Source: Parcubacteria group bacterium | Lineage (GTDB): Bacteria > Patescibacteriota > Minisyncoccia > 2-02-FULL-40-12 | DNA: 64,000 bases | NCBI GenBank assembly: GCA_016186395.1 | Contig: JACPLU010000003.1 | Location: 11,883 to 75,882, forward strand | Reading direction: 5' to 3' | In this document: in pieces, positions 377-26,766 of the stretch | Numbering within the stretch: position 1 is the first letter of the stretch | How the letters are laid out: each line of letters opens with the position of its first letter | Program-made: the position numbers and the translations under genes | The notes under the pieces: generated by a model | The model's database searches: none | The model's input: only the letters and a program-made list of their open reading frames with translations | Told to the model about the DNA's origin: nothing

Positions 377-1000
377 TGTCTCCTCCTTGAAGTAAAGAAC
401 GCGTTTGTTGAAATAGCAGTATATACTATGGTAGCATATACTTTTGTTTTTGTCAATTGAATCTAAAAATGTAGGCGGGATTTGTCTCATACTTAAGACC
501 CGAAGCCGGGTGAGCTACCCATGGCCAGGATGAAGTTCCGCGAAAGCGGAATGGAGGTCCGAACCCACGCATGGCGCAATATGCGGGGATGAGCTGTGGG
601 TCGGAGTGAAAAGCTTATCGAACCCGGTAATAGCTGGTTCTCTCCGAAATGCCTTTAGGGGCAGCGTCGGATTATGTTAAGTTGGGGGTAGAGCACTGAT
701 TGGATTTCCGTGCCCTTATGGGTAGGTTTTCCAGCCAAACTCCGAATACCAATTTAATTACTCCGGCAGTGAGACTACGGGGGCGAAGCTCCGTGGTCGC
801 GACGGGAACAGCCGTGATCTCAAGTTAAGGTCCCTAAATTAAGGTTAAGTGTGAAAGGTAGTGAAGACGCTCAAACAACCAGGAGGTTTGCTTAGAAGCA
901 GCCATCCTTTAAAGAGTGCGTAACAGCTCACTGGTCGAGCTTTTTTGCGCCTAAGATGTAACGGGGCTAAAACCTTATACCGAAACTGAGGGTTATCTGT

Positions 1001-1108
1001 GGCTCATCGATGCGTCTAAGGTCAAATGACTAAGGACTAAAGCTGAAAGGTTTAATTTTTGGCTTTAGACTTTAGACTCTAGACTTTAGTCGTGACGATG
1101 AGTCACGG
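1001..1108. repeat. 108-bp hairpin element, copy 1, inserted at the 23S helix-45 IVS hotspot
   Basis: Differs from 2087-2194 by a single nucleotide. Imperfect hairpin: gactaaggactaaagc ... gctttagactttagactctagactttagtc. Flanked by ggctcatcgatg / cgatgagtcacgg. Confidence 0.8.
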
Positions 1109-1666
1109 GTAGCGGTAGGAGAGCGCTTCATGTGCAGTGAAGCCTACGACGTGAGTCGGGGTGGAGCGCATGGAGGTGAGAATGTTGGCATGAGTAACCA
1201 CAATCCGCCTGAAAACGGCGGACGCCGAAAGCCTAAGGATTCCTCCGCGATGGCAATCATCGGAGGGTTAGGCGGCCCTAAGCATAAGTCAGGTTTTGGC
1301 CTGGCGAATGCGATGGACAGCCGGTTAATATTCCGGCCCTTCCTTATATTTTTAAGGAGCCCGGAGCTTAGTAGACTTGGCATATTATTGGATTTATGTT
1401 TGTGATATAAGAATGCGTCTTTGGAAAATCCGGGATGCTGTCTTTAATGACGAATTTAAATATTATGAAAACCCTGGTAACAGGGAATCAAGTTGAGCAA
1501 GCTTCCTAGAAAAACTTCTAAAATTATGTATAAGGAGTCCGTACCGCAATCCGACACAGGTAGGCAGCCAGGGAAACTGGTAAGGCGAACGGGTGAATGG
1601 TGGCTAAGGAACTCGGCAAAACAGCGGGCGTAAGTTCGCAATATGCCCTGCCAGCCGTAGATTTTA

Positions 1667-1953
1667 GTTTTTAATTTAGTTATAAAGTATCCATGTACTG
1701 TATTTATCTAATTCAGCATTCTGTAACAAAACAAATTTATATTGGTCTAACCAATGATTTGAAACGTCGGTTGTATGAACATAATGCTTCACAACAGAAA
1801 GCGACCAAAAGAAAAATTGGAGAATGGGTTTTAGTTTATGCAGAGGCATACAGAAATAAGACGGACGCTCAAATTAGAGAAAGAAAGTTGAAGCAACACG
1901 GAAGTAATAAACGTTGGTTAAAGGACAGAATTAAGTACAGTTTATTTGAAGAT
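1667..1953. other. Second helix-tip insertion in 23S (E. coli helix-63 region), bounded by a 16-bp perfect inverted repeat
   Basis: ccagccgtagatttta (1651-1666) pairs with taaaatctacggctgg (1954-1969). Conserved 23S sequence resumes at ggggactgtttatcaaaaacacag. Confidence 0.7.
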
Positions 1954-1956
1954 TAA
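1693..1956 (+). CDS. GIY-YIG domain protein (87 aa) encoded inside the 23S insertion
   Basis: The YIGLTNDLKRRLYEHN motif is a GIY-YIG core. The ORF is in the same sense as the rRNA. Confidence 0.7.
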   Translation: MYCIYLIQHSVTKQIYIGLTNDLKRRLYEHNASQQKATKRKIGEWVLVYAEAYRNKTDAQIRERKLKQHGSNKRWLKDRIKYSLFED

Positions 1957-2086
1957 AATCTACGGCTGGCCGCAGCGAATGACCTCTGGGGACTGTTTAT
2001 CAAAAACACAGCTCTCTGCTAACTCGAAAGAGGATGTATAGGGGGCGACGCTTGTCCAATGCTGGAACGTTAACGGTGATGGTCGT

Positions 2087-2194
2087 GGCTCATCGATGCG
2101 TCTAAGGTAAAATGACTAAGGACTAAAGCTGAAAGGTTTAATTTTTGGCTTTAGACTTTAGACTCTAGACTTTAGTCGTGACGATGAGTCACGG
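2087..2194. repeat. 108-bp hairpin element, copy 2, inserted in the 23S domain IV helix-68 region
   Basis: Nearly identical to 1001-1108. It interrupts the 23S between ggtgatggtcgtg and ctggagcccgaagcgccagtcaatgacggc. Confidence 0.8.
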
Positions 2195-2241
2195 CTGGAG
2201 CCCGAAGCGCCAGTCAATGACGGCAATAACCATAATTGTCC

Positions 2242-2466
2242 AAAGGTGAATCGCATTGCCTTTGTAAAATCCGACTATATCGGTGAACATCTCACTAAGA
2301 CGTGAGACAATACCGAGGCAATCCGTGAAAACGGAGAGTCCGTAGAGACTAAACGTCGGATCCTGAGCAAGCCGAAAGGCTAGTTGAAGGAAAGATATAG
2401 TCCGAACTGCATGGCGACATGCAGAAATGAGCAGAAATGTCTCGTTCCGCCGAGTCTGATTCGGCG
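2242..2466 (+). mobile_element. Small ORF-less group I intron in 23S, near E. coli position 1917
   Basis: Inserted after ccataattgtcc (E. coli ACGGUCC). Carries P7-like core strands gagactaaacgtcgg and aagatatagtccgaac, like the Tetrahymena CAGACTAAATGTCGG / AAGATATAGTCGGAC. Ends in G. Confidence 0.6.
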
Positions 2467-2529
2467 AAGTAACAATGTTGAGCGCAATTCCTTTCCGGGT
2501 AAGTTACGGAACTTGCCCCATGAAGAAGT

Positions 2530-3200
2530 GATTCTTTATGCAAAGTCGGCTTATAACGGTGGAGCCTGTTTCATGATAAAATGGAATAGAGAATACCGTG
2601 GGAAGTTGTCTTGACCTAACTCAAGATTAACCCCGTAACGACTGAGGCGAAAGCCACAATGGCGTTTTTTGAAACGTCATTATACGCCGACCCCTTAGGA
2701 TATTATGAGGAATATCGAAGAATATATTTCTGGATATGTTGATGGCGAAGGATGTTTTACTGTAACTTTTAACAAAAGGGATAAAGCAAAAATTGGTTGG
2801 GAATTAAGACCAAGTTTTTCAGTCAGTCAGAATGAAGAAAGACGACAGGTGCTAGATATTATACAGAAATATTTTGGATGTGGTTTTATTCGAAGAGATT
2901 ATTCAGACAGAACAGTAAAATTTGAAATTCGAGACCACATACAACTTAGAGATAGGGTTATTCCTCATTTTGAGAGATTTCCATTGCTCTCAAATAAACA
3001 AAAAGATTTTGAATTGTTTAGAGAAGTATGCAAAATTATTGATCATGGAGGTCATCTTACAAAAAGTGGATTTATTAAGATTGTAAATTTTGCTTATCGA
3101 ATGAATGGATCTGGTAAGCGTAAAAGAACTTCCCAAGAAATAATTCGAAATCTTAAATGATACTTAAGGTGATGATATAGTCTATAGTCTTAATTTAAAG
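2530..3200 (+). mobile_element. Group I intron in 23S domain IV, around E. coli 1931-1951, carrying a LAGLIDADG ORF; boundaries approximate
   Basis: Non-rRNA block between ccccatgaag and ggaaccactggaggactgtctcagcc. Shares taaccccgtaacgactga and ataccgtgggaagt with the intron at 4694-5437, and has P7-like ggtgatgatatagtc. Confidence 0.6.
2705..3160 (+). CDS. LAGLIDADG homing endonuclease (151 aa)
   Basis: YISGYVDGEGCF is a LAGLIDADG motif. Size is typical of a single-motif enzyme, and it sits inside a group I intron of the 23S. Confidence 0.8.
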   Translation: MRNIEEYISGYVDGEGCFTVTFNKRDKAKIGWELRPSFSVSQNEERRQVLDIIQKYFGCGFIRRDYSDRTVKFEIRDHIQLRDRVIPHFERFPLLSNKQKDFELFREVCKIIDHGGHLTKSGFIKIVNFAYRMNGSGKRKRTSQEIIRNLK

Positions 3201-3473
3201 ATTAAGAAGTTCCGGAGCGCATGAAAAGCGGAACCACTGGAGGACTGTCTCAGCCACTGGCCCGGTGAAAATGCAATGTCAGTAAAGATGCTGACTACCC
3301 GCACCAAGACGGAAAGACCCCGGAAGCTTTACTGTCTCTTGGTATTGGTCTATGAGTTTGGATGCGTAGTGTAGTGGGTAGGATTTGAAGTCCACCTTTT
3401 GGGGTGGATGGATCCAACAATGAAACACCCATCTTTCAGATTTATAGCTCTAACTGGTGACACCCTAGAAGGA

Positions 3474-3780
3474 AAATTTATAAGGAGGAGATTCTATAAT
3501 GCTATTTGAAGGTTCTCCTAGCCCAACATTTGAAGAAGAAGAAAAGTTTGGATTTAATCTATCAACAAAAATTTATGTTCATATTAATTCACCTCTTTTA
3601 GGTGAAAATGGTAATAAGATAGAAAAGAAATTTGGTGTATTAATCCATCTTTTAACTGGAAAACACGCGAGATTCAAATTAGCTGATCAATTTCGAGTAT
3701 ATGGAAGTGCGGCTAATGTGATAAAATTTTTGAGTAGTTATTTTCAATAAATTTCCTTTTGACAAGCTAGTCTTGTCTCT
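3474..3780. other. Third helix-tip insertion in 23S (domain V helix-78/79 region) carrying a sense-strand gene cassette
   Basis: Bounded by ccctagaa (3464-3471) and ttctaggg (3781-3788). Conserved sequence resumes at caggacagtgcctggtggacagtttgaatggggcg. Confidence 0.6.
3499..3750 (+). CDS. 83-aa protein of unknown function inside the 23S insertion
   Basis: RBS aaggaggag 9 nt upstream of ATG. Hairpin gacaagctagtcttgtc immediately after the stop. Confidence 0.45.
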   Translation: MLFEGSPSPTFEEEEKFGFNLSTKIYVHINSPLLGENGNKIEKKFGVLIHLLTGKHARFKLADQFRVYGSAANVIKFLSSYFQ

Positions 3781-4148
3781 TTCTAGGGTTTCATCAGGAC
3801 AGTGCCTGGTGGACAGTTTGAATGGGGCGTTTCCCTCCTAAAGAGTAACGGAGGGGTCCATAAGGTACCCTAGTCCCGGATGGAAATCGGGACGATAGTG
3901 TAAAAGCATAAGGGTGCTTGACTGCAAGGCAAACGTGCCGCGCAGGTGCGAAAGCAGGGTTTAGTGAACCGACCGTGGCTGGTAGGAGCGCGGAAGATTA
4001 TCGGATAAAAGCTACTCCGGGGATAACAGGCTAGTACCGCCCGAGCGTCCATAGCGACGGCGGTGTTCGGCACCTCGATGTCGGCTCGGCTTATCCTGGC
4101 GGTGAAGAAGCTGCCAAGGGTTGGGCTGTTCGCCCATTAAAAAGCTAC

Positions 4149-4621
4149 GCGAGCTGGGTTCAGACCGTTAAGAATCTGAATCATAAATCATGAAACTTGA
4201 AACATCTTGTTTCGGTTTGATTTGGTTTTTTAACAGTCTGAATCCGAGGATATTCAAAAGACATCATTTAACGGCGGCACTATATAGGAATATATAGTGT
4301 GAAGTTGACCATATCGGTGAAATCCCATTGGGATAACACCTAGGGAAGTTTGTAAACTTTATTGAAGTTCTTTTTTGGGAGGTGTAGCTCAAGAGTATTG
4401 TATGATGAAAGGCGAAAGTCGGGGACTCATACAGTAGCGAGAGCACTGGACTCTGGATCCAGAGGTTGCAGGTAAAAATCCTATCACCACCCACCAATTT
4501 TTGAGTAATCAATATTTGGCACTTCAATAAAGTTTACAAATCCCGTAGAGACTATACGTCAGCCACCCTAATTGAGCTTAGCTCAGCGGGTGAAGATATA
4601 GTCCAGTGCATACAGCAATGT
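4149..4621 (+). mobile_element. ORF-less group I intron in 23S at the I-CreI/I-CeuI-type site (around E. coli 2593)
   Basis: Exon gggttcagaccgt | intron | cgtgagacaggttggtcc matches E. coli GGGUUUAGAACGU|CGUGAGACAGUUCGGUCC. Core strands agactatacgtc and gaagatatagtcc are present and the intron ends in G. The only ORF in it (4264-4527, minus strand) looks spurious. Confidence 0.7.
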
Positions 4622-4693: not shown

Positions 4694-5437
4694 AGAATTT
4701 GCTACTTTAAGGAGTAATCCTTAATGACAATCCGACTTATAACGGTGGAACCTTATTGCAACTTGATTTGTTGATAACCAGAATTATCCTAATCCAATAA
4801 TTCTGGTACAATTTACTTGAGGACAAGATAGTAATAAGACAATACCGTGGGAAGTCATTCTAAAAACGATTTAGCATATATTTCCGGTTTTCTTGATGGA
4901 GACGGAAGTTTAATGTTGCAGATCAAAAAGTATAAGTACAATAAGTCAGGAAAAAGATTCATGGTAACTATTTGTTTCTATCAGGATTCAAGACACGACA
5001 AACCTCTTTATTGGATCCGTAAGATATTCGGGATAGGGTATATATCTAAAAGAAATGACGGTATTACTGAATTAAGAATAAATGGATATTCTAGAGTAAG
5101 AATAATTTTAGAAAAACTATTGCCGTTTATTAAGTTTAAGAAGAAGCAAGCAAGAATTCTTTATAAAGCGAGTAAATTACTCGAAAAAGAAAAAAAACTT
5201 AAAAAGACTTCCATGATTCGACTCGTAGATTACATAGTAAGAATCCAAGAGGAAAATTATGTGACAAGAAAAAAGAGATCGAAAGATGATTTATTAAAAT
5301 TTTTAGGATTGACCCCGTAACGACTCATCTTTAAAATAGATGGATGGCTGTTTTTAAACAGTCATAATATGTCGGCTCCCATCTTTGTCGATGGGATGAA
5401 GATATAGTCTACTCTTCTGGTGACAGAAGAAAATGTG
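4694..5437 (+). mobile_element. Group I intron in 23S inserted within the sarcin-ricin loop, carrying a LAGLIDADG ORF
   Basis: Joining exons cctagt + acgagaggattgg recreates CUAGUACGAGAGGA. The 5' exon ends in U and the intron ends in G. Core strands taatatgtcgg and gaagatatagtct are present. Confidence 0.65.
4847..5320 (+). CDS. LAGLIDADG homing endonuclease (157 aa)
   Basis: LAYISGFLDGDGSL is a LAGLIDADG motif; the ORF is intron-encoded. Confidence 0.8.
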   Translation: MGSHSKNDLAYISGFLDGDGSLMLQIKKYKYNKSGKRFMVTICFYQDSRHDKPLYWIRKIFGIGYISKRNDGITELRINGYSRVRIILEKLLPFIKFKKKQARILYKASKLLEKEKKLKKTSMIRLVDYIVRIQEENYVTRKKRSKDDLLKFLGLTP

Positions 5438-16196: not shown

Positions 16197-18404
16197 GTGG
16201 CTAAATCTAAAAAGGTTGTTAAATTGGTGCCGGAAAAAACGCAGTGGTTTGATCTGTCTCAAGAAACTAAAAATGGAATTTGGGTGGTATTAAGTTTTAC
16301 GGCCGCAGTTTTATCTGTTTTGGCCTTTTTGCATAAGGCCGGTACAGCAGGAGACATATTTTCAAGTTTTTCCAAAACTTTATTTGGCTGGGGTTTTTTT
16401 GTTATTCCGATTGCTTTTGCACTTTTGGGCTCGGCTTTTTTAAGGTCGTTTTCAAAAAAAGCATCTGTTGGGGCACTTTTTGGAACTGCTCTGATGGTTT
16501 TGGGTTTTTTAGGTGTTTTATTTGTTATTCGTGACGTTGATACTCAAGTTCGGTTAGTTCAGGGAGGGTATCTTGGAACAATTTTTGGGTTTCCACTCCT
16601 TAAACTCACAGGCTTTACCGCTTCATTGGTTGTTTTGTTAGCCGTAATTTTTGTATCATTTTTAGTTGCTTTAGATATTCCGTTTCATTCGTTAATTTTT
16701 AGAAAAAAGGAAGAAGGGGGAACAGATGAAGAGTCAAAGCTTAGCGGGGAATTAAATGAAAAATTAATTATTAAGCAGGGTTCTCAAGTGGTTGGTTCAA
16801 AGCCGATGTTTGAGGCCAAATCAATTCAACAAGATAAGAAGGTCGTTTCTGCATCGGTCCGGACGAAAGACGACGAAGAAAATGAATTTTCTATTCGAAC
16901 GGCGCTTAATAGAGAGTGGAAATTGCCTCCGCTAGAATTTTTGCACGCTGACAGCGACTCTCCAAAGGCGGGTGATATTGCCGCAAATGCCAGTATTATT
17001 AAAAGAACTTTGGCTAATTTCAGTATTGACGTTGAGATGGGTGAAGTTAACGTAGGACCAACCGTTACTCAATATACTTTGCGTCCGGCGGTAGGTGTAA
17101 AAATTGCAAAGATTACAACTTTGCAAAACGACCTTTCGTTAGCCTTAGCCGCTCATCCTTTACGTATTGAAGCTCCAATTCCTGGAAAGTCTCTAGTCGG
17201 TGTCGAGGTACCCAATAAAAAGTCAGCCCTGGTTGGTCTAAGAAATATTATTGAGTCCGAAGAATTTCAAAAAAGTCCCCACTTTTTGGCTTTGGGAGTT
17301 GGCCGTGATGTGGCTGGCTATCCTTTAGTTGCCGGATTAGAACGAATGCCCCATCTTTTAATAGCCGGAGCTACTGGGACAGGAAAATCAGTTTCTATTA
17401 ATACAGTACTTTTATCGCTTTTATACCGGCACTCTCCTGATATTTTAAAACTGATTATGATTGACCCGAAAAGAGTTGAACTTAGTTTGTATAACGGCAT
17501 ACCTCATTTAATAACTCCGGTAATTGTTGATTCTAAAAAGGCAATCAACGCTTTAAGGTGGGCAGTAAAAGAAATGGAGCGGCGTTATGAGCTTTTATCA
17601 GGTATCGGTTCACGCGATATATTTTCATATAATACAAAACAAGCCGCGGCTAAGAAGTCTTTGATCCCTTTTGTGGTCATCGTTATAGATGAATTGGCTG
17701 ATATTATGGCGGCTTATGGTCGTGATGTTGAAGGGGCAATTGTTCGTCTTGCTCAAATGGCGCGAGCAGTCGGGATTCATTTAATTGTTTCAACCCAACG
17801 GCCGTCGGTAGAGGTCATCACAGGTCTTATTAAAGCAAATATTACTTCGCGTATTGCTTTTCAGGTTGCTTCACAAGTTGACTCTCGAACAATTTTAGAT
17901 AATGCCGGCGCTGAAAAATTATTAGGCAACGGGGATATGCTTTATCAAGCAGGGGATGTAAGTAAACCAAAGCGTGTTCAGGGGGGTTATGTTTCAGAGA
18001 AAGAAGTAAAAGATGTGGTTAGATTTTTGAAAGACCAGGATTATGAAGCGACTCTGACAGCTGCGCCGGTTGGTGAAGATATAACTCAACCTCACTCTAA
18101 TATTAGTGACTTTACTGACTCTCACGACGACGATTATCAAGGCGGGGACGATCCATTATTTGAAGATGCCAAAGAAGTTGTTCTGCAAGCCAAGAAAGCA
18201 TCTTCTTCTTTGCTTCAGCGTAGACTACGCGTAGGTTATGCCCGCGCCGCACGTCTGATTGATATGCTTGAAGAAGCGGGTATAGTTGGCCCGGGCGAGG
18301 GCGCAAAACCAAGAGAAATTTTGGTTGGTACTCCAATTAGTATGGTCTCAACCGGCGAACCAATAGCCGTAGAGGAAGAAGAATCTCAAGATAATTTGAT
18401 ATAG
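16197..18404 (+). CDS. ftsK: DNA translocase FtsK/SpoIIIE
   Basis: N-terminal TM segments, a linker, then the ATPase domain with IAGATGTGKS (Walker A) and VVIVIDELAD (Walker B), and a C-terminal gamma-like domain. Confidence 0.9.
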   Translation: MAKSKKVVKLVPEKTQWFDLSQETKNGIWVVLSFTAAVLSVLAFLHKAGTAGDIFSSFSKTLFGWGFFVIPIAFALLGSAFLRSFSKKASVGALFGTALMVLGFLGVLFVIRDVDTQVRLVQGGYLGTIFGFPLLKLTGFTASLVVLLAVIFVSFLVALDIPFHSLIFRKKEEGGTDEESKLSGELNEKLIIKQGSQVVGSKPMFEAKSIQQDKKVVSASVRTKDDEENEFSIRTALNREWKLPPLEFLHADSDSPKAGDIAANASIIKRTLANFSIDVEMGEVNVGPTVTQYTLRPAVGVKIAKITTLQNDLSLALAAHPLRIEAPIPGKSLVGVEVPNKKSALVGLRNIIESEEFQKSPHFLALGVGRDVAGYPLVAGLERMPHLLIAGATGTGKSVSINTVLLSLLYRHSPDILKLIMIDPKRVELSLYNGIPHLITPVIVDSKKAINALRWAVKEMERRYELLSGIGSRDIFSYNTKQAAAKKSLIPFVVIVIDELADIMAAYGRDVEGAIVRLAQMARAVGIHLIVSTQRPSVEVITGLIKANITSRIAFQVASQVDSRTILDNAGAEKLLGNGDMLYQAGDVSKPKRVQGGYVSEKEVKDVVRFLKDQDYEATLTAAPVGEDITQPHSNISDFTDSHDDDYQGGDDPLFEDAKEVVLQAKKASSSLLQRRLRVGYARAARLIDMLEEAGIVGPGEGAKPREILVGTPISMVSTGEPIAVEEEESQDNLI

Positions 18405-18478
18405 TTCAATTTAAATATGACTTTGCATAGTTTTATTTTTTATAGAATATTGTAATATGATTATAATGAAGACCAGAA

Positions 18479-18502
18479 TCCATCCATCCATCCATCCATC
18501 CT
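18479..18502. repeat. (CCAT)n microsatellite
   Basis: ccatccatccatccatccatcc, between ftsK and the DGR RT. Confidence 0.9.
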
Positions 18503-18535
18503 AAGTTTTAGAAGAACTTTTATTTAGTTTATTTA

Positions 18536-18557
18536 GACCGCAATTAGCGGTTTTTTG
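18536..18557 (+). terminator. Weak hairpin plus T6 terminator after ftsK
   Basis: accgc aatta gcggt tttttt. Confidence 0.45.
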
Positions 18558-18568
18558 TTTCGTTTGTT

Positions 18569-19651
18569 TTATTCGTTAAGCCAGAACCAAAATTGATTTT
18601 TAAGTTTCTGAGACAATTTATATGAATCAGCGTGGCTCAAAACACCGAGATATGATTGCAAGGATTGTTCGAGGGTTTCATTTGTTATAACTCCCGATTT
18701 ATACTCCGCAATTTTTTTATTTAATTTTTTAAATATCCGTTGTCTTGTTTTAGCTCTAAGAATTCGATAATGAGGGAAAACTATATACCCGAGAAAATCT
18801 ATTCCCCGTTGAAATTTATTGATAGAAATCTTTTTTGGATGAATTTCCAGTTGTAGTCTTTGCCTTAGGAAAGAACTTATTTTTGGGATTAATCCTGATA
18901 GGTAATCACGACTGTCAGAAACTATGGTAAAGTCATCGGTATAACGGCAATAATATTTCACTTTTAAATCATGTTTAATAAACTGATCAGATTCGTTCAT
19001 ATAGATGTTTGCGAAAAGCTGTGAGGTTAAATTGCCTATTGGTAGACCCTTTCTGGCGAATAAATTTGAGCAAGAAGACAGAAAACTTCTGATAACCTTT
19101 TCAAGTAGCCAGATGGTATCTGTGTCTCGAATCCGTTTCTTCAGTATAGAAATCAAAATTTTATGATCTACCGCATCAAAAAACTTTTTAACATCACATT
19201 TAAGAATGAAGCAAGGTTTCGTTCCATTGCCGGATACTTTTCTGGTCATCTGTTCAAGGACGCGGATTCCTTTGTGGCTTCCGAATCCAACCCGACAAGA
19301 AAAAGAATTTTGAATGAATGTTTGTTCAAAAATCGGATTGGCTACCGAAAAGATGGCATGATGCAAAATTCTATCCCGAACCGTGGCTTTGTGGATATGC
19401 CTTTGTTTTGGGTCTCGGATGTAGAAACCAGTATATTGTCCGTGTTCATAAGTCTTATTCTGAAGTTCTCGACGAAGTTTAAAAATATTTTCTTCAAGAC
19501 AAAATTCAAATCTTTGAACATCAACTTTATTCCTCTTGTCGCTTTTGAAAGTATCCCACGCTGAAAATAGGTTTTCCAGCGAGATTATTTTATTAAACAA
19601 GTTTTTATAGGTTTTCATAATAAAATTAAATGAACGAATTCGATACCCCAA
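18569..19651 (-). CDS. Diversity-generating retroelement reverse transcriptase
   Basis: RT motifs are present: KCDVKKFFDAVDH (motif A), LPIGNLTSQLFANIYMN, where the [I/L]GxxxSQ form is typical of DGR RTs rather than the group II intron QGxxxSP, and YCRYTDDF (YxDD). The length of about 350 aa fits. The true start is probably MKTYKN at 19618. Confidence 0.85.
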   Translation of the reverse strand: MGYRIRSFNFIMKTYKNLFNKIISLENLFSAWDTFKSDKRNKVDVQRFEFCLEENIFKLRRELQNKTYEHGQYTGFYIRDPKQRHIHKATVRDRILHHAIFSVANPIFEQTFIQNSFSCRVGFGSHKGIRVLEQMTRKVSGNGTKPCFILKCDVKKFFDAVDHKILISILKKRIRDTDTIWLLEKVIRSFLSSCSNLFARKGLPIGNLTSQLFANIYMNESDQFIKHDLKVKYYCRYTDDFTIVSDSRDYLSGLIPKISSFLRQRLQLEIHPKKISINKFQRGIDFLGYIVFPHYRILRAKTRQRIFKKLNKKIAEYKSGVITNETLEQSLQSYLGVLSHADSYKLSQKLKNQFWFWLNE

Positions 19652-19977
19652 TATTTATAAAATCCTACGATTTATACAAGCTATTTTATAGTTTCCGTAC
19701 CCTGGTTCCCAAAAATGACCGCTACACAATCTGGCAAAGGTGCGAAAATTTAATGCTGGATATAATCGATGGAATTCTATATGCCAGCCAAATTTCAAAA
19801 ATTGAGAAACTCCCGATTCTTGAAAAAACAAGCATGAAGTTAAGTCTCCTGCGTGTTTTTGTTCGGCTTATGAAAGATACCAAAGCGATAGATAATAAGA
19901 AATACGTATCACTCGAAACCATTATCGACGAAATTGGCCGTCAGCTTGGAGGCTGGATAAAATCAACTAAAGGATAA
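19630..19977 (+). CDS. avd: DGR accessory variability determinant (Avd-like four-helix-bundle protein)
   Basis: 115 aa. The C-terminus IDEIGRQLGGWIKSTKG resembles Bordetella phage Avd IAEVGRILGSWIARVNRKG, and the N-terminal region VPKNDRYTIWQRCEN resembles IPRKHGVAREMFLKC. Transcribed divergently from the RT. Confidence 0.65.
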   Translation: MNEFDTPIFIKSYDLYKLFYSFRTLVPKNDRYTIWQRCENLMLDIIDGILYASQISKIEKLPILEKTSMKLSLLRVFVRLMKDTKAIDNKKYVSLETIIDEIGRQLGGWIKSTKG

Positions 19978-20023
19978 CAGAATACCCGCCAACTGGCGGG
20001 TATTCTTAATGAGGAGCGACTTC

Positions 20024-20148
20024 GAAAGGAACCCAGACGCGGAGCCATAGTTGTCGTTCGGGTTGCTTACGTCGTTCGTGTTGAACTTGACCTTGTCGTC
20101 GTTGAAGTTGAAGTACGGCGCGCTGCTGAACCTGCCATCAGCGTCTGG
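20024..20148 (-). repeat. DGR template repeat (TR)
   Basis: 125 bp homologous to 20620-20744. All 15 mismatches are T on plus (A on the coding/minus strand) in this copy. The translated frame is Asn-rich (NFNDDKVKFNTNDVSNPNDNY), typical of AAC-rich TRs. The 70-aa ORF 19963-20175 is therefore not a gene. Confidence 0.85.
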
Positions 20149-20613
20149 AAATTGCTTTTGCCCATCTATAGTCACCGGATATCGAGGCTTGCCACCTTAA
20201 CGGTCTATATCCTCTCAATCCTGAATTTTATTCGGGAGCATCTCGCAAAAGAATCTCCGCTGGGCGGAAGCAAGCAGTAGTCTCCTCAATTTGGCACTCT
20301 CGGAGAATCCGTGAACGCTCCGACTCTGGCCGTTTGATCTCTTTTTTGAAGAGAGAGTTCGGTGACGGCAATCCGAGAGCGATTCTAGTCGGGCTAAAGC
20401 GCCGACTAAGAAACTTCGCCCAGATAAACTGCCGTTCATTAACCTAAGCTCACAGGAAGTATACAAATAATCCAATTAAAAGTGAATATATAAAAAGAAA
20501 AAGAGGGCCACCCACGATGGAACTGTGGATAACCCTCTCAAAAATTTCGCCGAACTCAAGGATCAAGAAACAACGAATCAAAAGATCCAAGTGTTCGAGC
20601 GATCAAGGCCCTA

Positions 20614-21471
20614 CTACTGCGAAAGGAACCCAGACGCGGAGCCAAAGCTGTCGTCCGGGTCGCTCACGCCGTACGCGTTGAACTTGACCCTGACGTCGTC
20701 GAAGAGGAAGTACGGCGCGCTGCCGAACCTGCCATCAGCGCCTGGACTGTACTCATCGCCTGGGCAGTCGATGTGCAACTGTTCCCATTGAATGAGCCGT
20801 TCCGGATGAGACAGAAGCATGCAGTCGACGATGAACGAGCCGAGCCCGAACTCGTGAGGAGCATAGACCACGCGCATCCTTCGCACGGACCGACCCCGAT
20901 GGGTCAGGCCGAACTGGGCTGGGATCAGTAGAAAGTCGCCCTTCTGCTTTTCGCCGATCATCTGGAGCGCGACGGCTGTCCGTTCGGAGAGCCGCAGGTA
21001 TTTCGGGCCGAGCGCGCCTTTGCGGTAGTTGTGGAAGGTGCGGGTCTTTCCGATCAGGTCGAGAACCTTCTCGACAGCCTCGTTGTACGAGGACGCAACC
21101 TTCTCCCACCGCGGAACGGCGAACCAGCCTTCCGCGCCAGCGGGCAGAGCCGGAAGCTCCTTGGAGCAGGCCAGCACCGAACTGGTGTTGAGACCGTTGA
21201 AGTGCTTGGAGAGCTCCACGAGCTGTTCGCAGACCGGCTTCACGGCGTACCCTTGCGGATAGCCGTAGTTGGACTTCACCTCTTCGTTGGCGAAGAACGG
21301 ACTCGCCGTGACGAGAGGTGCCGAGGTCACTTCCTTCTCCTCGACGATGGACTGCAGGTTCCTGGCGACGAAACTCGGCTCGAGCGTCCCTTCCATGAGG
21401 CGGCGCTGGACTTCCCACATGCGGCGGGAAATCGTTCCGAGAGTGTCGTCTGCGACGATGTGAGTCGTCAT
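20614..21471 (-). CDS. DGR target (variable) protein, 285 aa, with a C-terminal VR-encoded ligand-binding region
   Basis: Good RBS aaggagg upstream of the start. The C-terminal 40 aa (...PGADGRFGSAPYFLFDDVRVKFNAYGVSDPDDSFGSASGFLSQ) is paralogous to the TR translation. About 58% GC, unlike the surrounding sequence. No signal peptide was detected. Confidence 0.8.
   Translation of the reverse strand: MTTHIVADDTLGTISRRMWEVQRRLMEGTLEPSFVARNLQSIVEEKEVTSAPLVTASPFFANEEVKSNYGYPQGYAVKPVCEQLVELSKHFNGLNTSSVLACSKELPALPAGAEGWFAVPRWEKVASSYNEAVEKVLDLIGKTRTFHNYRKGALGPKYLRLSERTAVALQMIGEKQKGDFLLIPAQFGLTHRGRSVRRMRVVYAPHEFGLGSFIVDCMLLSHPERLIQWEQLHIDCPGDEYSPGADGRFGSAPYFLFDDVRVKFNAYGVSDPDDSFGSASGFLSQ
20620..20744 (-). 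repeat. DGR variable repeat (VR) at the 3' end of the target gene
   Basis: Matches the TR except at template-adenine positions. It ends 4 nt from the target stop codon. The GC-rich 3' end ctccgcgtctgggttcctttc is conserved between TR and VR (IMH-like). Confidence 0.85.
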
Positions 21472-21707
21472 GATGACAACCTCCTTTTGATTTAACTTGC
21501 GAATTGTCTTGGCTCTCTTTGTCCCGCTGGGAGACTTTAGTGAGCCATATCCTGTTCCTCAGGATGCGGTCCCATCTCGGTTGAGACGAGCATGCTGGAA
21601 GTCTATGTTTTAGATGTCCAAAATGCTCATCTCAAGCCAAAACCTTATTGTAAGAACTGTATAATAATTATATACTATAAAAATATTAAAGTCAATGGTT
21701 AAATATT

Positions 21708-22778
21708 TTGGCTATTGTTATAGTAATTTCCATGGCAAAAAAACAGGATACTTCCCCAAAAACTTTAACGGAAAAGCAAAAAGATAAAGACGGAAAGAAT
21801 AAAAATATTGATCTTGCGGTAAAAGAAATAAAAGAAAAATATGGTGACGGGTCTATTATGCGTTTAGGAGAAGCGCGTAAAGTTAATGTAGATGTAATTC
21901 CGACCGGCTCTATTTCGCTTGATGCGGCTTTGGGTGTTTGGGGAATGCCAAGAGGAAGAATTATAGAAATTTATGGACCGGAATCAAGCGGGAAAACAAC
22001 TCTTTCTTTGCATGTTATTGCTGAAGCTCAAAAAATGGGCGGTTCAGCTGCATTTGTTGATGCAGAGCATGCTTTGGACCCTGAATATGCAAAAAAGGTG
22101 GGTGTAAAGATAGATGATCTTTTAATATCTCAACCGGATACAGGTGAGCAGGCTCTAGAAATAGTTGAAACTCTTGTACGTTCTGGCGCAGTGGACGTAA
22201 TAGTAATTGATTCTGTTGCCGCTTTGACTCCGAAGGCAGAAATTGAGGGAGAAATGGGGCAGCAGCATATGGGGCTTCAAGCAAGACTTATGTCTCAAGC
22301 GCTTCGTAAGCTTACAGCAATCGTAGGGAAGACAAATGTTGTGCTTATATTTTTAAACCAGATTCGGCAAAATATCGGAGTCTTTTACGGAAATCCAGAA
22401 ACAACAACCGGAGGAAAGGCTTTGAAGTTTTATTCGTCAGTTAGAATAGAAGTAAGGCGTGCCGCTCAAGTACAATCTGGTGAAAAAATTATCGGAAATC
22501 GTACAAAAGTGAAAATTGTTAAAAACAAAGTGGCTCCGCCGTTTAGAACTGCCGAGTTTGATATACTGTATGGTGAGGGAATTTCTAAATTGGCGGACTT
22601 AATTAACACAGGAGTAAAATATGATGTTCTTACTCGTTCGGGATCGTGGTATACTTATGGTGATATTAAACTTGGTCAGGGGCTGGAGGGCGCCCGATCG
22701 TTTTTAAAAGAAGATAAAAAACTGGAAAACGAGATCGCTAAGCAAGTAAAAATTAAAATGCAGACAGAAGAAATTTAA
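21708..22778 (+). CDS. recA: Recombinase RecA
   Basis: GPESSGKTT Walker A and a conserved RecA core. The likely true start is MAKKQ at 21732. Confidence 0.95.
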
Positions 22779-24915: not shown

Positions 24916-26766
24916 ATGTGTGGCATTTTTGGTTTTGTTAGTAAAAAGCCTGTTACTGGTATAGGTAATATGCTCCAAGCTTTAAAAAAGCTTGAATATA
25001 GGGGTTATGACTCTACTGGTATCGCTGTTGTAACCCAGAAGGGAATTTATAGTCAAAAAAAAGCCGGCCGAATAAGCAAGTTGGAACCATTTTTAGATAA
25101 AAAAGTTTTAGGCTCCGTTTTTATTGGCCACACTCGTTGGGCAACTCATGGAAAGCCTTCCGATAAAAATGCTCATCCACATTTTGGATGCGATAATAAA
25201 ATTCAAATAGTACACAATGGAATAATAGAAAACTATAAATCTTTGAAGCATGAATTAGAAGGTCGTGGTCATCGTTTTAAATCCGATACCGATAGTGAAG
25301 TTTTTGCTCATTTAGTAGAAGAGTTTCTGGGACGTAAAAACGGATCTGAAATAAGATATTTCGAAGAAGCAGTAAGATTATCTTTAAAAAGAATTAAGGG
25401 GGCCTATGCCTTTGCCGTTATTCATCAAAATTATCCTAAAGTTATAATTGTAGCAAAAAATTCAAGTCCATTATTAATTGGATTAAGCGATCAGGCTAAA
25501 TACATTGCTTCAGACCCCATAGCCTTACTTCGTCATACTCGTAAGGTCATTTATCTTAATGATCAAGAGTTGGCTATTGTTACCCCAGATCAATTAAAGA
25601 TTTCAACTCTCCAGAATAAAGAGATATTAAGAAAATATCAAGAAGTTAGTTGGTCTGAGGATGCAGTCAGGAAAACTGGATTTACTCATTTCATGGAAAA
25701 AGAAATTTTTGAGGAGCCGGAGGCTGTAGAAAATGCTATTAGAGGCCGGTTGATCGTTTCTCAGGGTTTGGCAAAGTTGGGAGGATTAGAATCTGTACGC
25801 CAAAAATTAGAAAGTGTTAAAAGGTTGATTATAACTGCTTGCGGTACAGCTTTTTTTTCTGGTTTAGTTGGAGAGTACATGTTGGAAGAGTTTGCGGGTC
25901 TGCCAGTAGAGGTTGAGAGCGGTTCGGAGTTGCGCTATAAAAGATCTCCGTTTGATGATAAAAGTGCTTTGTTGGCTGTAAGCCAATCAGGAGAGACTGC
26001 CGATACTCTCGGCTCTATTAAGGAAATAAAAAAAACAGGTCTTTTAACGCTGGGGTTGGTAAATACAGTGGGTTCTTCTATTGCTAGGGAGACAAATGCC
26101 GGAGTTTATAATCATGCAGGACCAGAAATTAGCGTTGCCTCTACCAAAGTTTTTATTTCTCAATTAGCAGTTTTTGCTTTACTGACTTTATTTTTAGGCC
26201 GTCAAAGATCTATGAGTAAAAATATGGGCAAACTTATAGCCTCTGAGCTGACTTTGATACCAAGAAAGTTGAGAACTATATTAGAAAGTTCTGTCTATAT
26301 TAAACGTGTGGCTCGAAAATACTTTAAATATAATAACTTTTTATTTTTAGGTAGAAAATTTAATTATCCTATTGCACTTGAGGGAGCCTTGAAATTAAAA
26401 GAGGTATCCTACATTCATGCTGAAGGATATGGAGCGGGGGATATGAAACATGGACCGTTGGCTTTGATAGATGAGAATTTTCCATCTATAGTAATTGCTC
26501 CAAAAGACAGTGTATACGATAAAGTAGTTAGTAACATGGAGGAACTAAAAGCTCGGAAGGGTAAAATAATCATCATAACTACTAGCGGAAATAAAGGACT
26601 TGATAAATTAGCGGATGAGGTTTTGTATATTCCTAAAACGATTGAAATGCTTACTCCGCTTTTGACAGTGATGCCGTTACATCTCTTGGCATATTACATG
26701 GGAGTTTTTAGAGGTCACGATGTAGATAAGCCACGTAATCTTGCTAAATCAGTAACGGTGGAATAA
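24916..26766 (+). CDS. glmS: Glutamine--fructose-6-phosphate aminotransferase
   Basis: MCGIFGF N-terminal nucleophile followed by two SIS domains. The start is set at the Cys-2 ATG (24916), not the upstream ORF start. Confidence 0.95.
   Translation: MCGIFGFVSKKPVTGIGNMLQALKKLEYRGYDSTGIAVVTQKGIYSQKKAGRISKLEPFLDKKVLGSVFIGHTRWATHGKPSDKNAHPHFGCDNKIQIVHNGIIENYKSLKHELEGRGHRFKSDTDSEVFAHLVEEFLGRKNGSEIRYFEEAVRLSLKRIKGAYAFAVIHQNYPKVIIVAKNSSPLLIGLSDQAKYIASDPIALLRHTRKVIYLNDQELAIVTPDQLKISTLQNKEILRKYQEVSWSEDAVRKTGFTHFMEKEIFEEPEAVENAIRGRLIVSQGLAKLGGLESVRQKLESVKRLIITACGTAFFSGLVGEYMLEEFAGLPVEVESGSELRYKRSPFDDKSALLAVSQSGETADTLGSIKEIKKTGLLTLGLVNTVGSSIARETNAGVYNHAGPEISVASTKVFISQLAVFALLTLFLGRQRSMSKNMGKLIASELTLIPRKLRTILESSVYIKRVARKYFKYNNFLFLGRKFNYPIALEGALKLKEVSYIHAEGYGAGDMKHGPLALIDENFPSIVIAPKDSVYDKVVSNMEELKARKGKIIIITTSGNKGLDKLADEVLYIPKTIEMLTPLLTVMPLHLLAYYMGVFRGHDVDKPRNLAKSVTVE

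What the first reader, a model, noticed from the sequence alone, without database searches (positions are those of the whole stretch)
18569..21471. Complete diversity-generating retroelement: RT, divergent Avd, TR and C-terminal VR with adenine-only substitutions
A 125-bp repeat at 20024-20148 (TR) matches the last 125 bp of the 285-aa gene 20614-21471 (VR, 20620-20744). They differ at 15 positions, and in every case the TR base is T on plus, which is A on the coding strand, while the VR has C, A or G. This is the A-to-N mutagenesis signature of DGRs. An RT with the DGR-type LPIGNLTSQ and YCRYTDDF motifs lies 0.4 kb away. Between them is a 115-aa protein whose C-terminus resembles Bordetella phage Avd. 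The TR translation is Asn-rich. The target has a good RBS but no signal peptide, so it may be an intracellular or non-classically displayed binding protein.
Basis: partly seen in the sequence, partly recalled or inferred. Interest (0 to 1): 0.85.

Follow-up and report, generated by a model that had tools for sequence, protein, structure and literature searches.

The report
Complete diversity-generating retroelement in Parcubacteria
This is a complete and probably recently active diversity-generating retroelement of the type already known to be common in tiny "candidate phyla radiation" bacteria; its template sits in its own small RNA gene behind a conserved folded RNA domain that I could not find described.

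Summary
TR (20019-20149) and VR (20616-20746, the last 131 nt of the gene at 20614-21471) align without gaps. All 96 non-adenine template positions are identical and all 16 differences fall on template adenines (chance about 3e-11).

The RT's best solved relative is a 328-aa RT that I take to be Bordetella phage bRT. The 115-aa protein is Avd. The target models as a C-type-lectin fold.

The kind is known. It has the TR-(avd)-RT "B3" architecture typical of candidate phyla radiation (CPR) DGRs and fits the Patescibacteria-restricted clade whose targets have no annotated domains.

New here:
- The TR is the 3' part of a roughly 475-nt RNA gene with its own promoter, a conserved 8-helix 5' domain with no Rfam match, and a 3' hairpin. 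Covariation support is strong.
- An 8-nt-periodic TTGR array and inverted repeat follows the VR.
- The target family keeps about 60% GC whatever the host GC.

Verdict: new member of a known kind, moderate interest.

The parts
20614..21471 (-). Target (variable protein) gene, 285 aa. It has a C-type-lectin-like fold, no signal peptide and 61% GC (GC3 0.80).
20616..20746 (-). Variable repeat (VR), the last 131 nt of the target ORF.
   Evidence: It differs from the TR only at TR adenines.
20620..20643 (-). A-free, GC-rich 24-nt block at the 3' end of the VR, identical in the TR (20023-20046). This is an IMH-like homing boundary. The adjacent fixed C(VR)/A(TR) difference at 20619/20022 acts as an IMH/IMH*-like marker.
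   Evidence: The function is inferred by analogy with BPP-1.
20551..20607 (-). Element just downstream of the VR: about 7 degenerate 8-nt units (CTTGRnnn) that also form an imperfect inverted repeat (arms 20597-20584 and 20564-20551).
   Evidence: It is conserved after the stop codon in DGR-linked and orphan family members. TTGR occurs 4.2 times per 80 nt versus 0.9 in controls, with spacing peaked at 8 nt. Pairing is 80.7% versus 73% shuffled and at most 53% slid. A role in target recognition is inferred.
20492..20539 (-). Intrinsic-terminator-like hairpin plus T-run ending the target mRNA.
   Evidence: Equivalent hairpins are present in relatives.
21667..21695 (-). Promoter-like site for the target gene (TTGACT-17-TATAAT), giving a 5' UTR of about 190 nt. 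The RBS AGGAGG lies at 21480-21485.
   Evidence: This is a consensus match only.
20458..20486 (-). Promoter of the TR-containing RNA gene (TTCACT-17-TATACT). The -10 box (TGnTATAAT consensus) is conserved at the same distance in relatives.
   Evidence: alignment columns 72-78.
20150..20452 (-). Conserved structured 5' domain of the DGR RNA, with 8 helices. It includes a lineage-specific 49-nt extra hairpin (20376-20424) inserted in the loop of helix 2, and the most invariant block GAGGAGA(C)UACUGCUUG (20271-20287).
   Evidence: nhmmer E 7e-50. On 37 sequences, 58 pairs are 96.2% paired versus 81.5% shuffled and at most 52% slid, and 44 pairs show compensatory changes. Mutual information on 122 sequences recovers the same helices. 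Helix coordinates. No Rfam match.
20019..20149 (-). Template repeat (TR). It has 35 adenines, 33 of them at codon positions 1-2, 7 AAC codons and 23 variable codons, allowing about 1e19 variants.
19979..20018 (-). Conserved linker (GUCGCUCCUC...) followed by a perfect 12-bp hairpin with a tetraloop (19979-20006). The hairpin is a candidate Avd-binding stem-loop and/or a bidirectional terminator between the TR RNA and the convergent avd.
   Evidence: An equivalent 10-15-bp hairpin with a different sequence is present in 33/34 relatives. The Avd-binding idea comes from bioRxiv 10.1101/2023.10.23.563531.
19630..19977 (+). avd accessory gene, 115 aa, on the strand opposite to the TR and RT.
   Evidence: Pfam PF22296 bAvd 56 bits (gathering score 40). 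NCBIfam NF033474 72.3 bits (cutoff 80). PHROG 3206 'Avd protein of DGR', E 4e-19.
18569..19618 (-). DGR reverse transcriptase, 349 aa from ATG 19618, with IGNLTSQ and YTDD motifs.
   Evidence: RVT_1. Best PDB hit 8ub7_A, E 3e-44 over the full length. PHROG 1423, E 4e-116. 36-39% identity to phage and archaeal-virus RTs, including those of ANMV-1 and Bordetella phages.

Best explanation
This is a chromosomal diversity-generating retroelement (DGR) of a Parcubacteria (Patescibacteria/CPR) bacterium, inserted between ftsK and recA. It has the CPR-typical order: target, TR, (avd reversed), RT.

Proposed mechanism:
1. A dedicated promoter drives a roughly 475-nt non-coding RNA. The RNA consists of a conserved 8-helix 5' domain, the 131-nt TR, a conserved linker and a strong 3' hairpin.
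2. The RT and Avd bind this RNA and reverse-transcribe the TR, misincorporating opposite its 35 adenines.
3. The cDNA replaces the VR at the 3' end of the target gene.
4. The boundary of replacement lies in a 24-nt A-free block shared by TR and VR, next to a fixed A/C marker. A conserved repeat and inverted-repeat element just downstream of the VR probably helps.
5. The result is up to about 1e19 variants of the ligand-binding face of a cytoplasmic or non-classically exported C-type-lectin-fold protein of unknown ligand.

Shown here: the parts, their family membership, the adenine-only pattern, and the conservation and covariation of the RNA.

Inferred: transcription start and end, RNA-protein binding, the priming site, the role of the downstream element, and current activity.
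For: - Adenine-only TR/VR differences: 16/16 at A, 0/96 elsewhere, p about 3e-11.
- The RT is closest to the solved 328-aa RT 8ub7_A, which I take to be BPP-1 bRT, and to phage and archaeal-virus RTs including those of ANMV-1 and Bordetella phages. It carries IGNLTSQ.
- Avd is confirmed by three profile libraries.
- The target has a CLec-like fold.
- The same module recurs in 35 of 79 genome loci and in 120 of 120 metagenome loci found with an RNA pattern. In all of these avd is opposite and RT is co-oriented with the TR, and A-biased VRs lie in homologous targets.
- The RNA domain has a conserved -10 box, 58 pairs with 44 showing compensatory change, and an insertion located in a loop.
- A 3' hairpin is present in 33/34 relatives.
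- Zero non-A differences in this copy argues for a recent homing event.
- All ORFs are intact.
Against: - There is no direct evidence of activity. No reads or strain variants were available, and the 90% cluster of the target has a single member.
- Many relatives are decayed or orphan: RNA without TR, a truncated avd, or no RT within 6 kb. Intactness therefore does not guarantee function.
- NCBIfam's Avd model scores just below its cutoff (72.3 vs 80).
- Promoter and terminator calls are consensus matches in a phylum whose signals are poorly known.
- The role of the 5' RNA domain rests on linkage and conservation only.
- The identity of 8ub7_A as bRT rests on my own knowledge; the tool names it only 'Reverse transcriptase'.
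Confidence: 0.93

Rival explanations
1. The cassette is a relic. It is a structurally complete DGR that no longer diversifies, and the 15 differences are fossils of past homing.
For: About half of the homologous target loci lack an RT, avd or TR within 6 kb. Several show truncated RNA or avd remnants (L001, L080), so decay is frequent in this lineage. No population data were available.
Against: The RT, avd and target ORFs are intact, and the promoter, RNA helices and hairpin are all conserved. There are 0 of 96 non-A differences between TR and VR, whereas drift after inactivation would add non-A differences. Relatives often show a few, although part of those counts comes from bases beyond the homology boundary.
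Confidence: 0.25
2. The RT belongs to a group II intron or a retron, and the repeat is an unrelated duplication of the gene's 3' end.
For: The top NCBIfam hit is group_II_RT_mat (149.8 bits), and retron and Drt models also hit weakly. A phage relative is annotated 'retron-type'.
Against: All those NCBIfam scores are far below their cutoffs (300, 235 and others). ranks the 328-aa RT 8ub7_A at 155 bits, group II intron RTs at 78 or less and retron RTs at 23-76. No group II intron or retron RNA family was found in the window. An adjacent Avd is present, the mismatches are adenine-only, and the motif is IGxxxSQ.
Confidence: 0.01
3. The 300-nt conserved region upstream of the TR is not part of the DGR machinery. 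It could be a small protein gene (ORF 20215-20475), the target's 3' UTR, or an independent sRNA.
For: An 86-aa ORF overlaps it. In the window layout it lies downstream of the target gene.
Against: The ORF has no family hit. The variation pattern is compensatory in stems, and indels sit in loops. The region stays fused to the 5' side of the TR, in TR orientation, in both layouts, including the one where the target is on the other strand. It has its own conserved -10 box and sits after the target's terminator.
Confidence: 0.08
4. The hairpin after the TR is only a shared transcription terminator for avd and the TR RNA, not an Avd-binding element.
For: The stem is GC-rich, often flanked by an A-tract and a T-tract. 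It lies exactly between the convergent TR RNA and avd.
Against: Handa et al. report putative Avd-binding stem-loops just downstream of the TR in 207/278 DGRs, including CPR ones. The two roles do not exclude each other. One relative (L039) lacks the hairpin.
Confidence: 0.4

Closest known systems
CPR/Patescibacteria DGRs: architecture B3 'TR-(avd)-RT' (Wu et al. 2018, PMC5758913) and DGR clade 2 (Roux et al. 2021, PMC8144416); first surveyed by Paul et al. 2017, which is not held in the library
   Same: [quoted passage not shown] The element is chromosomal. There is a single C-terminal VR in a protein with no annotated domain, TM segment or signal peptide. The mutagenesis is adenine-specific.
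   Different: Nothing essential differs; this is a member. In the papers I could read I found no description of the conserved 5' RNA domain, the stand-alone RNA gene, the 8-nt TTGR array after the VR, or the constant roughly 60% GC of this target family.
Bordetella phage BPP-1 DGR (mtd-avd-TR-brt)
   Same: Both have RT, Avd and TR/VR with A-to-N changes. Both have a CLec-fold target with a C-terminal VR, a GC-rich A-free 3' boundary with an IMH/IMH*-like difference, an inverted repeat downstream of the VR, and a stem-loop downstream of the TR.
   Different: BPP-1 is phage-borne, with all genes on one strand. Its RNA scaffold consists of 20 nt of avd upstream of the TR plus a 140-nt Sp region downstream that carries the priming A56. 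Here there is no Sp between TR and RT. A roughly 260-300-nt structured domain lies upstream of the TR, and only about 45 nt (linker plus hairpin) lie downstream. The target here is not a tail fibre.
RT-10 RNA motif and other RT-n motifs (Weinberg et al. 2017, PMC5737381; Rfam)
   Same: These are structured RNAs next to RT genes. RT-10 is the BPP-1 TR-RT spacer, and the authors speculated that other RT motifs serve other DGRs.
   Different: No RT-n or other Rfam model matches the domain, even at E up to 10, in the window or in an insertion-free relative. The position is upstream of the TR, not between TR and RT.
FGE-type/DUF1566-type C-type-lectin variable proteins (TvpA 2y3c, Lcl C-terminal domain 8q4e, Mtd 1yu0, TaqVP 5vf4)

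Membership tests
Diversity-generating retroelement (DGR) | A TR/VR repeat pair whose differences are confined to template adenines | tested here: met
   16/16 differences fall at TR adenines and 96/96 non-A positions are identical, p about 3e-11.
Diversity-generating retroelement (DGR) | An RT of the DGR clade with the [I/L/V]GxxxSQ motif | tested here: met
   IGNLTSQ is present. The best solved relative is 8ub7_A (155 bits, full length), which I take to be bRT, versus at most 78 bits for group II intron RTs. PHROG 1423, E 4e-116. No formal phylogeny was made.
Diversity-generating retroelement (DGR) | The VR lies at the 3' end of a protein-coding target, and the TR adenines sit at codon positions 1-2 (AAC-rich) | tested here: met
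   The VR ends 2 nt before the stop codon. 33/35 adenines are at codon positions 1-2 and there are 7 AAC codons.
Diversity-generating retroelement (DGR) | An accessory protein Avd | tested here: met
   PF22296 56 bits, above the gathering score of 40. PHROG 'Avd protein of DGR', E 4e-19. NF033474 72.3 bits, below the cutoff of 80.
Diversity-generating retroelement (DGR) | The variable domain has a C-type-lectin (or Ig) fold | tested here: met
Diversity-generating retroelement (DGR) | IMH/IMH* boundary and an inverted repeat downstream of the VR | tested here: inconclusive
   There is a 24-nt A-free shared block plus a fixed A/C difference, and a conserved imperfect inverted repeat and 8-nt array after the VR. 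The sequences are unlike BPP-1 and the function is untested.
Diversity-generating retroelement (DGR) | Ongoing VR diversification in the population | not testable with these tools
   No reads are available, and the 90% cluster of the target has one member.
CPR-type DGR, architecture B3 / clade 2 | Order TR-(avd)-RT with avd on the opposite strand, a Patescibacteria host, and a target without known domains | tested here: met
   Coordinates. The target is an exact match to a Parcubacteria MAG protein. Definitions are taken from PMC5758913 and PMC8144416. The RT tree placement in clade 2 was not computed.
Group II intron | A ribozyme RNA (domains I-VI) flanking an RT/maturase ORF | tested here: not met
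   There is no group II intron Rfam hit in the window. TIGR04416 scores 149.8, far below its cutoff of 300.
Retron | A retron RT with an adjacent msr/msd ncRNA | tested here: not met
   The retron RT model scores 54.5, below its cutoff of 235. PDB chains named as retron RTs score 23-76 bits, well below 8ub7_A at 155. There is no retron RNA hit.
Rfam RNA families (including RT-1 to RT-19) | A covariance-model match of the region upstream of the TR | tested here: not met
   No relevant hit at E up to 10 in window 19900-20700 or in L082 6870-7500.

The most novel reading that the evidence does not exclude
The conserved 8-helix RNA domain fused to the 5' side of the TR is an undescribed, essential DGR RNA scaffold. 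It would be a permuted functional equivalent of the BPP-1 Sp region. Its invariant GAGGAGA-UAC block would pair with the last TR bases and the conserved linker (GU-C-UCUCC) to position a priming nucleotide that lies upstream, not downstream, of the template. Because the TR then sits in a stand-alone RNA gene, CPR DGRs could work on remote or orphan targets.
Probability: 0.3. Interest if true: 0.65.

Novelty: new member of a known kind. Interest (0 to 1): 0.4.

Why it matters
As a DGR, this adds one more intact example to a clade already known to be abundant in CPR bacteria. That alone is not news.

The possible value lies in three family-wide features found while checking it:
- A strongly covarying, roughly 260-nt RNA domain with its own promoter sits upstream of the TR. 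This gives a concrete, compact RNA + RT + Avd set for reconstituting a CPR DGR. It also allows a test of whether the RNA scaffold and priming logic solved for the Bordetella phage element can be permuted.
- A conserved 8-nt-periodic element follows the VR and is a candidate target-recognition signal.
- The target gene family holds about 60% GC (GC3 0.8) in AT-rich genomes while its RT and avd follow the host. No known DGR mechanism explains this.

The target family has more than 650 members and no annotation. It remains a widespread CPR protein of unknown ligand.

Tried and rejected
- A 14-base RNA pattern scanned over viral contigs returned 120 loci, but none matched the RNA profile, so these were chance hits.
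- RNAalifold on the region downstream of the VR gave no consensus because the 3' arm was badly aligned. A hand-drawn helix gave only moderate support.
- Tandem Repeats Finder does not call the 8-nt array. Only motif-spacing statistics show it.
- The target's roughly 190-nt 5' UTR is not clearly conserved; nhmmer hits are marginal.
- Mutual information over 122 full-length RNAs recovered the helices but found no long-range pair between the 5' domain and the linker. Both are nearly invariant, so the proposed priming duplex cannot be tested by covariation. Runs of at least 6 complementary bases are expected by chance.
- A profile of the target family against PDB sequences found nothing.
- VRs of the closest homologues (L080, L001, L002) derive from their own TRs, so they could not serve as a population test of this TR.
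- I tested whether A-specific mutagenesis spilling over the whole gene could explain the high GC. It does not: A (0.20) and T (0.19) are equally low outside the VR.
- A chimeric assembly as the cause of the GC island is rejected, because the same island recurs in 79 independent loci.
- Paul et al. 2017, the primary CPR DGR survey, is not in the held library. I could not check whether it mentions the RNA domain.
Full report
**Observation.** A blind repeat search of 17500-22500 returned one long direct repeat, 20019-20149 versus 20616-20746: 131 nt, 88% identity, no gaps. Read on the minus (coding) strand, all 16 mismatches have A in the first copy. All 96 non-A positions are identical, and 16 of the 35 A positions differ. 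If 16 changes fell at random, the chance that all hit the A sites is 2.9e-11. The second copy is the last 131 nt of the 285-aa ORF 20614-21471. No further copy exists in the 64-kb window. In the TR, 33 of 35 adenines lie at codon positions 1-2. There are 7 AAC codons and 23 codons can vary, about 1e19 combinations. Its coordinates are 5-6 nt short at the 3' end.

**A fixed boundary marker.** The extra mismatch I found, TR ...CCGAAGT versus VR ...CCGCAGT, is not a product of mutagenesis. The TR has A in 33/34 relatives, and the VR has C in 61/80 and A in only 1. It sits next to a 24-nt A-free GC-rich block shared by TR (20023-20046) and VR (20620-20643). This behaves like the IMH/IMH* distinction of the Bordetella phage element, as described in PMC5758913.

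**The proteins.**
- *RT (18569-19618).* The likely start is ATG 19618, since homologues and the best solved RT align from there. It is RVT_1. Its best solved relative is the 328-aa chain 8ub7_A (E 3e-44, 155 bits, end to end, sharing ...PIGxLTSQLFAN...). I take this chain to be BPP-1 bRT from my own knowledge; the tool names it only 'Reverse transcriptase'. Group II intron RTs score at most 78 bits and retron RTs 23-76 bits. NCBIfam's intron, retron and Drt models all fall far below their cutoffs. PHROG 1423 matches at E 4e-116. Phage relatives at 36-39% identity include ANMV-1 and Bordetella phages.
- *Avd (19630-19977, + strand).* It is confirmed by Pfam bAvd (56 bits, gathering score 40), PHROG 3206 'Avd protein of DGR' (E 4e-19) and NCBIfam DivGenRetAVD (72.3 bits, just under the cutoff of 80).

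**Host and context.** The target is an exact match to an NCBI 'hypothetical protein HYW77_01070 [Parcubacteria group bacterium]' on a 239-kb contig. The cassette lies between ftsK (16197-18404) and recA (21708-22778).

**Is the kind known?** Yes. Wu et al. define architecture B3 as TR-(avd)-RT and state that it accounts for 90% of CPR DGRs. Roux et al. describe a cellular DGR clade 2 restricted to Patescibacteria whose targets typically lack transmembrane or other conserved domains. The reversed avd and the target without a signal peptide are thus typical, not exceptional.

**The family.**
- The target has more than 650 homologues, all unannotated and from Patescibacteria MAGs, and 238 species-representative genomes encode one.
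- In the 79 loci fetched, 35 carry both RT and avd. The two genes always form a head-to-head pair a few nt apart, in two layouts: target>..TR> <avd RT>, or the same module inverted upstream of the target.
- 34 loci, including the window, have a recognisable TR with A-biased differences.
- The rest, including the closest homologues (83-91% identity), are orphan or decayed. L080 keeps the RNA, TR, hairpin and a truncated avd. L001 keeps only a truncated RNA.

**A stand-alone DGR RNA gene.** The 465 nt between VR and TR is not a simple spacer.
- After the target's terminator (20539-20492) comes a promoter-like site (20486-20458). Its -10 box is conserved as TGnTATAAT in relatives.
- A roughly 260-nt region follows (303 nt in the window) that stays fused to the 5' side of the TR in both layouts.
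- On 37 sequences, RNAalifold predicts 8 helices with 58 pairs. The pairs are 96.2% paired, against 81.5% when partners are shuffled and at most 52% when slid. 44 pairs carry compensatory changes, and the covariation score is 0.587 against 0.286 shuffled and at most 0.17 slid.
- Mutual information on 122 non-identical sequences recovers the same helices, plus a hairpin inside the loop of helix 8 and the 3' hairpin.
- The window's copy has a 49-nt extra hairpin (20424-20376) inserted exactly in the loop of helix 2.
- No Rfam family, including RT-1 to RT-19, matches at E up to 10.
- Downstream of the TR, a conserved linker (GAAGUCnCUCC...) is followed in 33/34 loci by a perfect 10-15-bp hairpin whose sequence differs between loci. 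In the window this is 19979-20006, just after the avd stop. It has the shape of a bidirectional terminator. It also fits the 'Avd-binding stem-loop just downstream of TR' that Handa et al. report for 207/278 DGRs, including CPR ones. That study examined only 40 nt upstream of the TR.
All of them match the RNA profile. In all of them avd is opposite and RT co-oriented, and they show hits to the same target family and A-biased VRs. The RNA is therefore a fixed part of this DGR lineage.

**Mechanistic inference.** B3 elements have no Sp region between TR and RT. In BPP-1, that region envelops bRT, lies over Avd and carries the priming A56. I therefore infer that the upstream domain supplies the scaffold here. 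The most invariant block, GAGGAGA(N)UAC (20287-20271), is complementary to the last two TR bases plus the linker (GU-C-UCUCC). The proposed pairs are 73-98% Watson-Crick or GU across 122 sequences. It is equally complementary to an internal CUCUC (helix 3, the least supported helix), and both partners barely vary. This remains a hypothesis.

**Other family-wide features.**
- The 80 nt after the stop codon hold 4.2 TTGR motifs on average, against 0.9 +/- 1.0 in control windows. Their spacing peaks at 8 nt. In the window this is about seven CTTGRnnn units (20607-20552). They overlap an imperfect inverted repeat with some compensatory change: 80.7% paired against 73% shuffled and at most 53% slid. 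Orphan targets have it too, so it belongs to the target side. By position it is a candidate for the target-recognition structure known from BPP-1.
- The target gene is 61% GC (GC3 0.80) in a 38% GC genome, while RT and avd have GC3 of 0.32 and 0.40. Over 79 loci the target is 0.60 +/- 0.03 GC against flanks of 0.44 +/- 0.06 (r = 0.27), and RT and avd follow the host. A and T are equally low outside the VR, so spill-over adenine mutagenesis does not explain it. Recurrence in independent assemblies excludes chimerism. I have no explanation.
- RT and avd start 11 nt apart, head to head. Their promoters must therefore lie inside each other's coding sequence.

**Activity.** The copy has intact ORFs and zero non-A differences between TR and VR. 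That argues for recent homing, but I could not test population heterogeneity.

**Verdict.** The element is a new member of a known kind. The RNA gene architecture, the element adjacent to the VR and the GC island raise its interest from low to moderate.

Noticed in passing
window 393-4234 and 4847-5320: The 23S rRNA match spans 3842 nt against a 2925-nt model, so it carries about 900 nt of insertions. One insertion encodes a LAGLIDADG endonuclease (2705-3160, Pfam E 6e-27). A second LAGLIDADG ORF (4847-5320) lies in the unusually long 1.5-kb gap between the 23S and 5S genes. By my own knowledge, rRNA insertions of this kind are typical of CPR bacteria.
   Followed up: partly
window 20614-21471 and 79 related loci: The target gene family keeps about 60% GC (GC3 0.80 here) whatever the host GC (32-57%), while RT and avd track the host. 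A and T are equally depleted. This is unexplained.
   Followed up: partly
window 20552-20607 (- strand); same position in L001-L079: An array of about 7 degenerate 8-nt units (CTTGRnnn) follows the target stop codon immediately. TTGR is 4.5-fold enriched with 8-nt spacing. It is present in DGR-linked and orphan targets.
   Followed up: partly
L001 5558-5784; L080 2050-2685; L007, L071, L072, L078: These loci hold decayed DGR remnants next to intact target homologues: a truncated RNA domain without a TR (L001), or RNA + TR + hairpin + a truncated avd without an RT (L080). Loss of the RT module while the target is kept seems frequent.
   Followed up: partly
window 19618-19630: The RT and avd start codons are head to head, only 11 nt apart (1-20 nt in relatives). 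The two promoters must therefore be embedded in each other's coding sequence. Promoter-like sites occur at 19712-19683 (-) and 19594-19621 (+).
   Followed up: no
protein P0104: One database homologue ends with an Asn-rich, TR-like C-terminus that reads through into '...GFLPKFLLIKKT...', which is the translation of the TR plus linker. This is probably a TR miscalled as a gene end or a VR/TR mis-assembly.
   Followed up: no
window 24951-25025: ARAGORN calls a tRNA-Phe with anticodon AAA that Rfam's tRNA model does not report at its gathering score. It may be an odd or false tRNA call.
   Followed up: no
window 18500-18530 (- strand): A short GGAT tandem run (ggatggatggatggatggatgg) lies in the ftsK-RT intergenic region.
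   Followed up: no
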